From an uncultured Clostridia bacterium (GTDB lineage: Bacteria > Bacillota > Clostridia > TANB77 > UBA1234), in the NCBI GenBank assembly GCA_934149305.1, contig CAKPEF010000008.1, forward strand, positions 1,885 to 65,884: DNA of 64,000 nt, read 5' to 3'. A program made the translations under genes and the position numbers. The notes below the pieces were generated by a model. The model did not search any database. It saw only the letters and a program-made list of their open reading frames with translations, and was not told the origin of the DNA. Every line of letters begins with the position of its first letter. Position 1 is the stretch's first letter. This document shows, in pieces, positions 61,626 through 61,940 of the stretch.

Positions 61626-61653
61626 TTGACTTTTTATGTTACTATAGTATAAT
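61626..61653 (+). promoter_or_regulatory. near-consensus promoter of a short + strand RNA
   Basis: TTGACT (61626..61631), 16 nt, TATAAT (61648..61653). Confidence 0.55.
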
Positions 61654-61659
61654 TTAATT

Positions 61660-61747
61660 AAAGATGAGGTTTTGGTCACAATGTGACTTGCCCAAGTTAT
61701 AGTAAAAAATCACTCAACCGTAGCCAATGGATAGAGTGATTTTTTTA
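61660..61747 (+). ncRNA. candidate small RNA (antitoxin-like), convergent with the small toxin-like ORF
   Basis: Runs from the promoter above to the hairpin AATCACTC-18 nt-GAGTGATT plus T6 (61708..61746). The hairpin is also a terminator on the minus strand. No RBS-supported ORF. Confidence 0.4.
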
Positions 61748-61749
61748 TG

Positions 61750-61836
61750 TTATTTCTTCTTATTGATTAGTATCTTTAAGAAGGATGCTATCAATAGAAC
61801 TTCAATTGCAAATAATATGTAATCATTTTCTACCAT
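61750..61836 (-). CDS. 28-aa hydrophobic peptide with a Lys tail (type I toxin-like)
   Basis: GGGAGGTG RBS 8 nt upstream of the ATG. MVENDYILFAIEVLLIASFLKILINKKK. Not in the ORF track because it is too short. Confidence 0.45.
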   Translation of the reverse strand: MVENDYILFAIEVLLIASFLKILINKKK

Positions 61837-61911
61837 TGGCATCACCTCCCTCTTCATTCGTAAAAACAAAAAGGGCAAATCACATCATATCCGAACAACC
61901 TCATCATTAGT

Positions 61912-61940
61912 AGTGTACAACATTTGTTCATCATTGTCAA
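61912..61940 (-). promoter_or_regulatory. promoter of the toxin-like ORF
   Basis: Minus strand: TTGACA (61935..61940), 17 nt, TACACT (61912..61917). Confidence 0.45.

What the first reader, a model, noticed from the sequence alone, without database searches (positions are those of the whole stretch)
61626..61940. A type I toxin-antitoxin-like module: 28-aa hydrophobic Lys-tailed peptide and a convergent small RNA sharing a terminator
On the minus strand, the promoter TTGACA-17-TACACT is followed by a roughly 68-nt 5' UTR, a GGGAGGTG RBS and the ORF MVENDYILFAIEVLLIASFLKILINKKK (61750..61836). Its size and pattern resemble Fst/PepA1-class toxins.
On the plus strand, the promoter TTGACT-16-TATAAT drives a roughly 90-nt RNA. 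It ends at the hairpin 61708..61746, which is T-flanked on both strands. The two transcripts should therefore overlap at their 3' ends, as in the txpA/RatA or bsrG/SR4 arrangements.
Oddly, the first 35 nt or so of both RNAs are similar in the sense orientation (ATGAGGTT.T......ATGTGA.TTGCCC at 61664..61693 and, in reverse complement, at 61874..61906). This forms an inverted repeat at the DNA level around the module. Classic par-type loci do not have it.
Basis: inference. Interest (0 to 1): 0.6.

Follow-up and report, generated by a model that had tools for sequence, protein, structure and literature searches.

The report
New SOS-linked type I toxin-antitoxin family
This is one copy of an unannotated, multi-copy gene pair in uncultured gut Clostridia, a 28-residue membrane peptide plus a convergent antisense RNA, and it looks like a new type I toxin-antitoxin family in which the start of the toxin message is a sense copy of the antitoxin RNA.

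Summary

**What the comparisons add**
- The module is one of five paralogues in this 1.6 Mb genome.
- About 45 copies were found in 21 of 32 genomes of one family of uncultured gut Clostridia. Only 1 of 218 genomes from the sister families has it.
- The peptide ORF, its Shine-Dalgarno (SD) sequence, a leader hairpin that hides the SD, the antisense promoter and the shared hairpin T1 are conserved throughout.
- The peptide matches no Pfam, NCBIfam or Rfam family and lacks the Fst PXXXG motif.

**The inverted repeat**
- The repeat is present in nearly every copy, in two sequence types.
- Its two arms co-vary: 96% paired and 6 compensated pairs in type B.
- T1 always carries a strong U-run for the antitoxin but often a weak one for the toxin. 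Many type A copies, this one included, have a second hairpin plus U-run (T2) downstream.

**Best reading**
- Toxin transcripts that read through T1 fold back, leader onto 3' tail. The antitoxin competes for that tail.
- The toxin promoter also holds a LexA-like box where the recA and lexA promoters carry theirs.

Nothing here is experimental. The TA reading is well supported. The fold-back mechanism is inference.

The parts
61935..61940 (-). Toxin promoter -35 (TTGACA)
   Evidence: A TTGAC-type -35 lies at the same distance from the leader in the related type A modules.
61917..61930 (-). LexA-like (SOS) box TGAACAAATGTTGT in the promoter spacer, overlapping the first base of the -10
   Evidence: It matches 8 of 10 positions of AGAAC-N4-GTTCT. 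The recA and lexA promoters of this genome carry their boxes in the same place, between -35 and -10. The background chance of 8/10 or better in a 50-nt stretch is 1.1%.
61912..61917 (-). Toxin promoter -10 (TACACT)
61897..61905 (-). Leader block P (GATGAGGTT) at the inferred 5' end of the toxin mRNA. It is the same sense sequence as the 5' end of the antitoxin.
   Evidence: It pairs with the 3' tail in the predicted fold.
61886..61896 (-). Leader block M. It differs from the antitoxin arm. It resembles the 3' half of the antitoxin terminator and is complementary to the 5' strand and loop of T1.
   Evidence: In type B the M:T1 pairing is 86% paired in its main helix, with 4 compensated pairs.
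61873..61885 (-). Leader block D (ATGTGATTTGCCC), the second shared block. Its last CCC also begins the anti-SD strand.
   Evidence: (99.6% paired with the tail in 20 type A modules).
61843..61875 (-). SD-sequestering leader hairpin: anti-SD CCCTTTTTGTTT (61875..61864) paired with the region up to the SD GGGAGGTG (61850..61843)
   Evidence: In 30 of 35 distinct leaders the SD is paired to a strand that starts within 12 nt of the end of D (in most, inside its last 3 nt). Mean z is -3.5, and each subgroup has its own compensating anti-SD/SD pair.
61750..61836 (-). Toxin ORF, 28 aa plus stop: acidic N-terminus, hydrophobic core, invariant Lys21, KKK tail
   Evidence: dN/dS is about 0.43 and the second codon position is the least variable.
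61704..61746 (.). Shared hairpin T1 with A-run and T-run flanks. It is the terminator of the antitoxin and a leaky or variable terminator of the toxin mRNA.
   Evidence: The U-run on the antitoxin strand has 7-8 U of 9 in 32 of 36 modules. The toxin strand averages 4.9 of 9, and here has 6 of 9.
61626..61653 (+). Antitoxin promoter TTGACT-16-TATAAT
   Evidence: A TTGACT -35 followed by TATAAT or TAAAAT is visible downstream of nearly every module printed.
61660..61749 (+). Antitoxin small RNA, about 90 nt: P' (61663-61671), 5' hairpin (61675-61687), D' (61681-61693), then T1'
   Evidence: Folding gives -24.9 kcal/mol, z = -3.7. The consensus structure is conserved in both types, with 7 compensated pairs in type B.
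61603..61630 (-). T2: hairpin GTCAATAC-UUCG-GTATTGAT followed by a run of seven T on the toxin strand. It overlaps the antitoxin -35 and is the proposed end of the long toxin transcript.
   Evidence: It is present in many type A modules with compensating stem changes and stable tetraloops (UUCG, GCAA) in the toxin-sense reading. It forms in the fold of the 304-nt transcript.

Best explanation
The locus is a chromosomal type I toxin-antitoxin module of a family not described before.

**Components**
- The minus strand encodes a 28-residue, Lys-tailed, single-span membrane peptide.
- Its promoter carries a LexA-like box, so DNA damage is expected to raise toxin transcription.
- In the leader, the ribosome-binding site is locked in a hairpin.
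- The plus strand encodes an antisense RNA of about 90 nt. It starts from a stronger, near-consensus promoter and ends at the shared hairpin T1.
- This RNA is fully complementary to the 3' end of the toxin message. It should pair with that end and block or destroy the message, as in the 3'-overlapping Bacillus and C. difficile systems.

**The inverted repeat**
- The repeat makes the first 33 nt or so of the toxin leader a condensed sense copy of the antitoxin's recognition elements: blocks P and D, plus a middle block that resembles the antitoxin's terminator strand.
- I propose that toxin transcripts which read through T1 as far as a second terminator, T2, fold back, with leader blocks P and D pairing with the 3' tail.
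- This closes both ends of the message. It also takes the CCC away from the anti-SD strand, which loosens the ribosome-binding site.
- The antitoxin, a perfect complement of that tail, outcompetes the leader and returns the message to the locked, degradable state.

**Shown:** the sequence features, their conservation and their co-variation.
**Inferred:** transcription, read-through, toxicity, and whether fold-back switches translation on or off.
For: **Family and conservation**
- There are five paralogues in the genome.
- About 45 loci occur in 21 of 32 genomes of the same family, against 1 of 218 genomes in the other families of the order.
- This copy sits downstream of spo0A in at least 12 relatives whose Spo0A is 62-97% identical.

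**Coding**
- The ORF length, SD and hydrophobic/Lys pattern are kept while identity falls to about 40%.
- dN/dS is about 0.43.

**Antisense RNA**
- Its promoter is conserved.
- Its structure is conserved.
- T1 has a strong U-run on the antitoxin strand in 32 of 36 modules.

**SD hairpin.** It is present in 30 of 35 leaders, mean z -3.5, with subgroup-specific compensation.

**Repeat**
- Cognate arms are more alike than non-cognate arms, permutation p < 1e-4 in both types.
- In type B the P and D helices are 96% paired, with 6 compensated pairs, and a co-variation score of 0.211 against 0.067 or less when the partners are slid.
- In type A the D helix is 99.6% paired.

**Read-through**
- The toxin-strand U-run has 4 or fewer U of 9 in 14 of 36 modules.
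- T2 is conserved in many type A modules.
- The 304-nt transcript folds leader-onto-tail in both the MFE and the centroid structure, z = -7.2.
- The SD is modestly more open in the long form: 0.37 against 0.25 in type A, p = 0.003 overall.

**SOS link.** The LexA box is enriched and sits at the position it occupies in the recA and lexA promoters.

**Decay pattern.** In L042, L085 and L088 the stop codon, T1 and most of the antitoxin gene are deleted. The same copies have a mutated SD and an altered C-terminus. In L058 the toxin start is lost and the antitoxin is kept.
Against: - There is no expression, toxicity or structure-probing data. The organisms are uncultured.
- Arm co-variation shows that the arms must stay alike. 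It does not show on which molecule they pair.
- The G-U against A-C asymmetry that would point to the toxin strand is not decisive: 13 against 9 cells in type B.
- In this particular copy T1 has a fair U-run on the toxin strand (6 of 9), so read-through may be a minority event.
- T2 is not general in type B.
- The predicted change in SD accessibility is small.
- Type A shows little sequence variation, so its co-variation score is no better than the shuffles.
- The LexA-like box here is 8/10, and some close relatives have worse boxes.
- dN/dS rises to about 0.75 among the closest pairs.
Confidence: 0.6

Rival explanations
1. The module is a type I TA pair, but the repeat is not an RNA helix. 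Both RNAs simply need the same 5' element, for example a 5' stem-loop closed by GG(P):CC(D) that protects against 5' exonuclease, or a site for one RNA-binding protein or RNase. The two copies are kept alike by concerted evolution.
For: - The consensus antitoxin fold closes P'(GG) onto D'(CC) around a small hairpin in both types.
- The transition mismatches between arms show no clear strand bias.
- This copy's T1 could terminate most toxin transcripts.
Against: - The GG:CC closing pairs never vary, so they explain none of the variation.
- The variable positions (TTGACC, TTAGCC, TTAACC, TAGACC, TTTGCC, GGTAAT, ATGAAGG) change together in the two arms but not within an arm.
- The shared blocks are only 9-13 nt long and are split by a middle block that always differs. 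That arrangement does not fit gene conversion.
- A protein site would not need to differ between paralogues in one cell.
Confidence: 0.2
2. In type B the shared block D (GGTT-RR-CC) is self-complementary at the RNA level through G-U pairs. The identical D blocks of toxin and antitoxin could therefore pair directly with each other, as in a kissing dimer. For a palindromic block an inverted repeat does the job that a par-type direct repeat does.
For: - GGUUGACC, GGUUAGCC, GGUUAACC and GGUUGGCC all pair with themselves and with each other.
- This removes the two A-C mismatches of L015 and L054 seen.
- RNAduplex often picks D:D' as the best contact between leader and antitoxin in type B.
Against: - Non-palindromic variants (TAGACC, TTTGCC, ATGACC) still keep their two arms alike.
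- Type A block D and both P blocks are not self-complementary.
- Overall, complementarity between the leader and the antitoxin 5' domain is no better than shuffled sequence (mean z -0.55).
Confidence: 0.08
3. The pair is not a toxin-antitoxin system. The peptide is a harmless small membrane protein, or is not translated at all. The two convergent RNAs are an ordinary sense/antisense pair, or terminator-associated transcripts downstream of spo0A.
For: - Toxicity is untested.
- dN/dS is only moderately low.
- The locus is a stable core-genome neighbour of spo0A rather than part of a mobile element.
Against: - Copies are dispersed, multi-copy and sometimes tandem.
- A strong SD is kept but always sequestered.
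- The antisense promoter is the stronger of the two.
- The decay pattern fits TA logic: copies that lost the antitoxin also have a damaged SD and tail.
- The size and Lys-tail pattern match those described for clostridial type I toxins (PMC6563280).
Confidence: 0.1
4. The inverted repeats are recombination sites of an invertible DNA switch that swaps which promoter drives the peptide.
For: Short inverted repeats flank a segment of about 250 bp with promoters outside it. Identity between partner sites is what a crossover region requires.
Against: - All of the roughly 40 complete modules are in one orientation.
- The junction expected after inversion has 0 exact matches in the metagenome collection, against 5 for the normal junction. 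The power of this test is low.
- The arms differ between paralogues in one genome.
Confidence: 0.02

Closest known systems
par (RNA I/Fst and RNA II) of Enterococcus faecalis pAD1 and the par-like loci of Firmicutes
   Same: - Convergent promoters.
- One hairpin used as terminator by both RNAs.
- A short antisense RNA.
- A leader stem-loop that hides the SD.
- Repeats at the 5' ends of both RNAs.
- A peptide of about 30 residues with a charged tail.

These features are as described in PMC7472228.
   Different: - In par the repeats DRa and DRb are direct in the DNA, so the two 5' ends are complementary and pair across the start site.
- Here the repeats are inverted, so the 5' ends have the same sense and show no significant complementarity.
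- The peptide lacks PXXXG and matches no Fst profile.
txpA/RatA, bsrG/SR4 and bsrE/SR5 of Bacillus subtilis, and CD2517.1/RCd8-type modules of Clostridioides difficile
   Same: - Convergent genes that overlap at their 3' ends.
- The antitoxin is complementary to the 3' part of the toxin message.
- The toxins have a hydrophobic N-terminal part and a Lys-rich C-terminus (PMC6563280).
   Different: - There is no detectable sequence relationship.
- The peptide is shorter, 28-33 residues against 38-59.
- The overlap is only about 45 nt unless the toxin transcript reads through.
- As far as I know, those systems have no leader/antitoxin sense repeat.
- This module is not on phages or plasmids.
hok/sok fold-back (the fbi-tac pairing), and the 5'-3' long-distance pairings of aapA1/IsoA1
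   Same: The proposed pairing joins the extreme 5' end of the toxin message to its 3' end, and governs access to the ribosome-binding site.
   Different: - In those systems the antisense RNA targets the 5' region, and the fold-back keeps the message inert until the 3' end is trimmed (my own knowledge of the literature).
- Here the antisense RNA covers the 3' partner itself.
- The predicted effect of fold-back on the SD is, if anything, opening.
tisB/istR-1, dinQ/agrB and symE/symR of E. coli (SOS-induced type I toxins)
   Same: A LexA box lies in the toxin promoter. TisB is a 29-residue membrane peptide of similar size.
   Different: - There is no sequence relationship.
- The antitoxin geometry is different.
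- PMC6563280 names only E. coli examples of SOS-inducible type I systems.

Membership tests
Type I toxin-antitoxin system (general class) | Small hydrophobic peptide ORF with its own ribosome-binding site, conserved as coding sequence | tested here: met
   Peptides of 25-34 residues with the pattern M-x-x-N/T-D-Y-I, hydrophobic core, K, Lys tail occur in about 45 loci. dN/dS is about 0.43 and the second codon position is the least variable.
Type I toxin-antitoxin system (general class) | Cis-encoded antisense RNA with its own promoter and terminator that overlaps the toxin gene | tested here: met
   Conserved promoter. Conserved two-hairpin structure. U-run of 7-8 of 9 in 32 of 36 modules. This is sequence-level evidence only; transcription was not observed.
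Type I toxin-antitoxin system (general class) | The peptide is toxic when made, and the RNA neutralises it | not testable with these tools
   Only indirect evidence is available: the decay pattern of modules that lack the antitoxin.
Type I toxin-antitoxin system (general class) | Toxin mRNA is kept translationally inert by an intramolecular structure over the SD | tested here: met
   30 of 35 leaders, mean z -3.5, with compensating anti-SD/SD variants.
par / Fst (Fst/Ldr superfamily) | Convergent promoters and a shared bidirectional terminator | tested here: met
par / Fst (Fst/Ldr superfamily) | DNA direct repeats (DRa, DRb) transcribed in opposite directions, which make the two 5' regions complementary | tested here: not met
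   The repeats are inverted. Complementarity between the leader and the antitoxin 5' domain is not above shuffled sequence.
par / Fst (Fst/Ldr superfamily) | PXXXG(C) motif in the transmembrane segment and a match to the family profile | tested here: not met
   No Pro-x3-Gly in any of 38 peptides. No Pfam or NCBIfam match at E up to 10. No Rfam match to any antitoxin RNA family.
TxpA/BsrG-type 3'-overlapping modules | Toxin and antitoxin RNAs overlap at their 3' ends | tested here: met
   The two share T1 and its flanks, including the last Lys codons. The overlap becomes longer if the toxin transcript reads through.
TxpA/BsrG-type 3'-overlapping modules | Toxin homologous to TxpA, BsrG or the holin-like toxin families | tested here: not met
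   No profile match. No tblastn match in phage records.
hok/sok-type fold-back regulation | Pairing of the 5' end with the 3' end within the full-length toxin mRNA | tested here: inconclusive
   Co-variation and predicted folds support the pairing. It requires read-through of T1, which is inferred from U-run weakness and T2 and was not observed.
SOS-induced type I toxins (tisB-like regulation) | LexA operator in the toxin promoter | tested here: inconclusive
   The box here is 8/10, at the position it occupies in recA and lexA. Among type A promoters, 12 of 21 score 7/10 or better against 12.5% background. Type B promoters and antitoxin promoters show no enrichment. Binding was not tested.
Invertible DNA switch (inverton) | Both orientations of the segment between the repeats occur | tested here: not met
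   One orientation in all complete modules. 0 matches to the inverted junction against 5 to the normal junction.

The most novel reading that the evidence does not exclude
The antitoxin works by molecular mimicry. The toxin message carries at its 5' end a condensed sense copy of the antitoxin. That copy binds the message's own read-through 3' tail and opens the ribosome-binding site. The antitoxin represses by displacing this cis-acting look-alike from the tail. This would be a control logic not described for type I systems, coupled to SOS induction in strictly anaerobic gut Firmicutes.
Probability: 0.3. Interest if true: 0.75.

Novelty: new variant of a known kind. Interest (0 to 1): 0.6.

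Why it matters
- Type I toxin-antitoxin pairs are hard to find because the peptides fall below gene-calling limits and their sequences do not travel between lineages.
- This family is almost absent from protein databases. Only 22 cluster representatives were found among 1.84 billion proteins, and many are mis-called with false N-terminal extensions.
- Even so, it occupies up to 5-7 loci per 1.1-2.1 Mb genome in a whole family of uncultured human and animal gut Clostridia.
- It offers a natural comparison with par: the same layout, but with the repeats turned around. That makes the role of the repeat testable by simple compensatory mutagenesis.
- If the SOS link holds, it would extend damage-induced membrane toxins, known from E. 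coli persister work, to gut anaerobes.

Tried and rejected
**Searches that found nothing**
- Pfam and NCBIfam scans of four paralogous peptides: no family.
- Rfam at permissive and gathering thresholds on type A and type B loci: only chance-level hits.
- Phage and plasmid collections, by DNA and by peptide: no match.
- ESM Atlas: no usable hit.
- Earlier notes of this scan: nothing.

**Searches limited by the tools**
- Word-based protein search needs at least 40 residues. The 42-residue upstream-extended frame found only two unnamed proteins.
- The search for related loci rejected the 38-peptide alignment as too variable.

**Ideas tested and dropped**
- A par-like complementarity between the leader and the antitoxin 5' domain: not above shuffled sequence.
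- A strand-specific G-U bias to decide which RNA forms the helix: not decisive.
- DNA inversion: no evidence.
- A TisB-like charge zipper (Asp5/Lys28, Glu12/Lys21): dropped because Glu12 is not conserved.

**Method problems**
- Two attempts to delimit T1 automatically failed before the version used.
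Full report
**1.
- The sequence at 61600-61960 contains, on the minus strand:
  - TTGACA (61940-61935), a 17-nt spacer and TACACT (61917-61912);
  - a leader of about 69 nt;
  - GGGAGGTG (61850-61843);
  - the ORF MVENDYILFAIEVLLIASFLKILINKKK (61836-61753, stop codon to 61750).
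- On the plus strand it contains TTGACT-16-TATAAT (61626-61653).
- The hairpin with an A-run before it and a T-run after it lies at 61704-61746.
- The two promoters are the best two sigma-70 matches in the region. The AT-rich region as a whole has no more promoter-like sites than its shuffles, and the simple scanner calls no terminator.
- The inverted repeat (61663-61693 against 61873-61905) scores 30, against a shuffle mean of 21 and a maximum of 29.
- Taken alone, then, the locus is suggestive but not compelling.

**2. It is one member of a family.**
- A DNA search of the window's own 1.6 Mb assembly found partial copies on three other contigs.
- Reading those copies showed complete modules with related peptides, each followed by a hairpin and a convergent element.
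- A profile of four peptides, searched in six frames, found a fifth copy in this genome.
  - It also gave matches at E of 1 or less in 21 of 22 genomes of the same genus; 16 of those 22 match at E of 1e-5 or less.
  - The counts reach about 5-7 solid matches per genome.
- I collected 46 hits and oriented them.
- The peptides are 25-34 residues long. Their pattern is:
  - Met, two variable residues, Asn or Thr, then Asp-Tyr-Ile;
  - a hydrophobic stretch of about 13 residues;
  - an invariant Lys;
  - a short hydrophobic stretch and a Lys/Arg tail.
- Identity to the window's peptide falls to about 40% while length and pattern are kept.
- dN/dS over 372 pairs is about 0.43, and the second codon position is the least variable. 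Among the closest pairs the ratio is about 0.75, so the constraint is moderate.
- At E of 1e-5 or less the family is present in:
  - 21 of 32 genomes of the same taxonomic family (genera 16/22, 3/3, 2/2 and 0/5);
  - 1 of 218 genomes of the four other families of the order.
- The named records are uncultured gut Clostridia or "Eubacteriales" genomes assembled from metagenomes, from humans and a roe deer. A few were binned under other names.
- An exhaustive HMMER search of 1.84 billion representative proteins found only 22. Many carry spurious upstream extensions.
- There is no match in Pfam, NCBIfam or Rfam, in phage or plasmid collections, or in the ESM Atlas.
- This particular copy is an old chromosomal resident. 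It lies downstream of spo0A in at least 12 relatives whose Spo0A is 62-97% identical to the window's.

**3. The antisense RNA.**
- Downstream of nearly every module, in the convergent direction, lies TTGACT, a 16- or 17-nt spacer, TATAAT (type A) or TAAAAT (type B), and a few bases later the repeat block P'.
- The RNA folds into a 5' stem-loop closed by GG:CC, followed by the terminator hairpin.
- Both types have this consensus, with seven compensated pairs in type B.
- The window's copy folds at -24.9 kcal/mol, z = -3.7.
- T1 is followed on the antitoxin strand by 7-8 U in 9 positions in 32 of 36 distinct modules. That run is the complement of the toxin's Lys codons and the A-run after them.
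- On the toxin strand the run averages 4.9 U of 9, and has 4 or fewer in 14 of 36 modules (Wilcoxon p about 1e-5).
- T1 is therefore the antitoxin's dedicated terminator and an unreliable one for the toxin.

**4. The toxin leader.**
- In 30 of 35 distinct leaders the SD is paired in a stable local hairpin (mean z -3.5).
- The 5' strand of that hairpin starts within 12 nt of the end of block D, and in most leaders inside its last three bases.
- Subgroups carry different but matching pairs:
  - CCCUUUUU with AAAAAGGG;
  - CCUUAU with AUAAGG;
  - UCCUCC with GGAGGG;
  - ACCUCC with GGAGGU;
  - CCAUCU with AGAUGG.
- This is the counterpart of the 5' stem-loop of par RNA I (PMC7472228).

**5. The inverted repeat is conserved and its arms co-evolve.**
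- The repeat occurs in two sequence types:
  - type A: GATGAGGT ... ATGTGAYTTGCCC, as in this copy;
  - type B: GATAAAGGRAAT ... GCGGTTGACC.
- It sits at fixed distances from the start and stop codons.
- Each arm has two shared blocks, P and D. A middle block always differs between the toxin arm and the antitoxin arm.
- Variants of D (TTGACC, TTAGCC, TTAACC, TAGACC, TTTGCC, TTGTCC) and of P (GGTAAT, GGAATT, ATGAAGG, GAGGCG) appear in both arms of the same module.
- Cognate arms are more alike than non-cognate ones, permutation p < 1e-4 in each type.
- Written as helices between the leader and the downstream complement of the antitoxin arm, the results are:

| Type | Cells paired | Compensated pairs | Co-variation score | Control |
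|---|---|---|---|---|
| B, P and D | 96% | 6 | 0.211 | 0.067 or less when partners are slid |
| A, P and D | 95% | 2 | 0.069 | 0.067, the shuffle mean |

- In type A the D helix alone is 99.6% paired. Type A varies too little for the co-variation score to exceed the shuffles.
- The repeat is kept in other genera (L084, L027) and in the one positive genome of another family (L026).

**6. What the repeat most likely does.**
- Because the repeat is inverted in the DNA, the two RNAs share sense sequence. They cannot pair through it, and complementarity between the leader and the antitoxin 5' domain is not above shuffled sequence.
- The partner of the leader blocks lies on the toxin strand beyond T1.
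- Three observations make a longer toxin transcript plausible:
  - the weak toxin-strand U-runs;
  - a second hairpin plus U-run on the toxin strand just past the antitoxin promoter in many type A modules, including this one at 61630-61603, with compensating stem changes and UUCG or GCAA loops in the toxin-sense reading;
  - the fold of the 304-nt transcript, in which P and D pair with the tail in both the MFE and the centroid structure, z = -7.2.
- The middle block of the leader is complementary to the 5' strand and loop of T1. This pairing is 86% paired in its main helix with 4 compensated pairs in type B. In type A it is the predicted MFE of the short transcript.
- The leader is therefore a condensed sense copy of three parts of the antitoxin: P', the terminator strand, and D'.
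- It follows that the 3' region of the toxin message can be bound either by its own leader or by the antitoxin.
- The last CCC of D is also the strongest part of the anti-SD strand, so fold-back should loosen the SD hairpin.
  - In partition-function calculations the SD is modestly more open in the long form than in the short or antitoxin-blocked forms (0.37 against 0.25 in type A, 0.22 against 0.18 in type B, p = 0.003).
  - The direction of the switch is thus weakly indicated.
  - A hok-like reading, in which fold-back is the inert storage form, cannot be excluded.

**7. SOS link.**
- In this genome the recA promoter carries AGAACGGTTGTTCT between its -35 and -10. The lexA promoter carries AGAACGAATTTTTG in the same place.
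- Type A toxin promoters carry a similar box at that position.
  - 12 of 21 match AGAAC-N4-GTTCT at 7 or more of 10 positions (background 12.5%).
  - 4 of 21 match at 8 or more (background 1.1%).
  - One relative's toxin promoter is almost a copy of the lexA promoter.
- The window's box, TGAACAAATGTTGT at 61930-61917, matches 8 of 10.
- Type B toxin promoters and all antitoxin promoters show no enrichment.

**8. Rivals.**
- *DNA inversion.* All complete modules have one orientation. The junction expected after inversion was not found in the metagenome collection, although only five normal junctions were found there.
- *Self-complementary D blocks.* This fits the commonest type B variants but not the others, and not type A.
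- *A common 5' stability element kept alike by concerted evolution.* This is the strongest rival. It does not explain why the variable positions change together between arms while the invariant GG:CC pairs are the only intra-arm contact.
- *A harmless peptide.* This cannot be excluded without an experiment. However, in L042, L085 and L088 the stop codon, T1 and most of the antitoxin gene are deleted, and those copies also have a mutated SD and an altered C-terminus.

**9. Comparison with known systems.**
- The layout is that of par (convergent promoters, shared terminator, SD stem-loop, 5' repeats), but the repeats have the opposite orientation and the peptide is unrelated and lacks PXXXG.
- The 3' overlap is like txpA/RatA, bsrG/SR4 and the C. 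difficile modules. Their toxins share only the general pattern of a hydrophobic N-terminal part and a Lys-rich C-terminus.
- The proposed 5'-3' pairing recalls hok. The LexA box recalls tisB, dinQ and symE.
- I file the locus as a new variant of the type I toxin-antitoxin kind: a new peptide family with an unusual, testable regulatory architecture.

**10. Confidence.**

| Claim | Confidence |
|---|---|
| It is a real, conserved toxin-antitoxin-like gene pair | about 0.8 |
| The repeat is under selection to keep its arms matched | about 0.85 |
| The matched arms act through fold-back of a read-through toxin transcript, with the antitoxin competing | about 0.45 |
| The toxin promoter is LexA-controlled in this copy | about 0.5 |

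Noticed in passing
window 61716-61733 (T1 loop) and 61829-61842 (start-codon region), minus strand: In this copy the T1 5' strand and loop (UCUAUCCAUUGGC) are complementary to the start-codon region (GCCAAUGGUAGA): 12 bp with one bulge. This pairing appears in the MFE and the centroid of the long transcript. It is only partly kept in relatives. The conserved CUAUCC of type A loops can also pair with GGAUA in the leader.
   Followed up: partly
T1 loops of related modules, e.g. L052, L045, L027, L039, L040, L084: The T1 loop carries a third, sense copy of the distal part of block D (TTAGCC, TTGACC, TAGTC, TTTGTCC, TAACC), and it tends to follow the module's own variant. Cognate loops match better than non-cognate loops, p = 0.01 in type B and 0.08 in type A. 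As a consequence, the antitoxin's terminator loop is complementary to D in both RNAs. The function is unclear.
   Followed up: partly
Upstream of type B toxin promoters, e.g. L005 (own contig 12), L059 (own contig 7), L021, L052, L054: A conserved AATGTTCGCTTG motif abuts or overlaps the -35. It contains one LexA-like half-site (GTTCG) but no full box. It may be an operator for another regulator.
   Followed up: partly
L042, L085, L088: Three assemblies share the same deletion. It joins the last Lys codons of the toxin directly to the complement of P', and so removes the stop codon, T1 and most of the antitoxin gene. These copies also have SD GGGTGG, a P block changed to GATGAAGTT and a new C-terminus (RRNPHF or similar). 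L085 additionally has Tyr6 changed.
   Followed up: partly
L016, L012, L054, L060: Modules occur as tandem pairs 0.45-2 kb apart in several genomes. This suggests local duplication.
   Followed up: no
window 60867-61367 (-): A 166-residue predicted membrane protein lies between the module and the BI-1-like gene (60057-60755). In relatives L011, L014 and L068 the BI-1-like gene flanks the module and no match to the 166-residue protein was found in the loci searched, so the gene looks like an insertion in this genome.
   Followed up: partly
window 61840-61842 (-): A second in-frame ATG lies two codons upstream (giving MPMVEND...). It is too close to the SD to be the likely start. The same ATG-NNN-ATG arrangement recurs in several paralogues. 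Gene callers that do report the ORF usually choose starts far upstream.
   Followed up: no
own genome contig 1 near 58123, and contig 3 near 87290: The recA and lexA promoters carry LexA boxes between -35 and -10. Ten strict GAAC-N4-GTTC sites exist in the genome, and five of them have the AGAAC...GTTCT flanks. Together they could define the SOS regulon of this uncultured lineage.
   Followed up: partly
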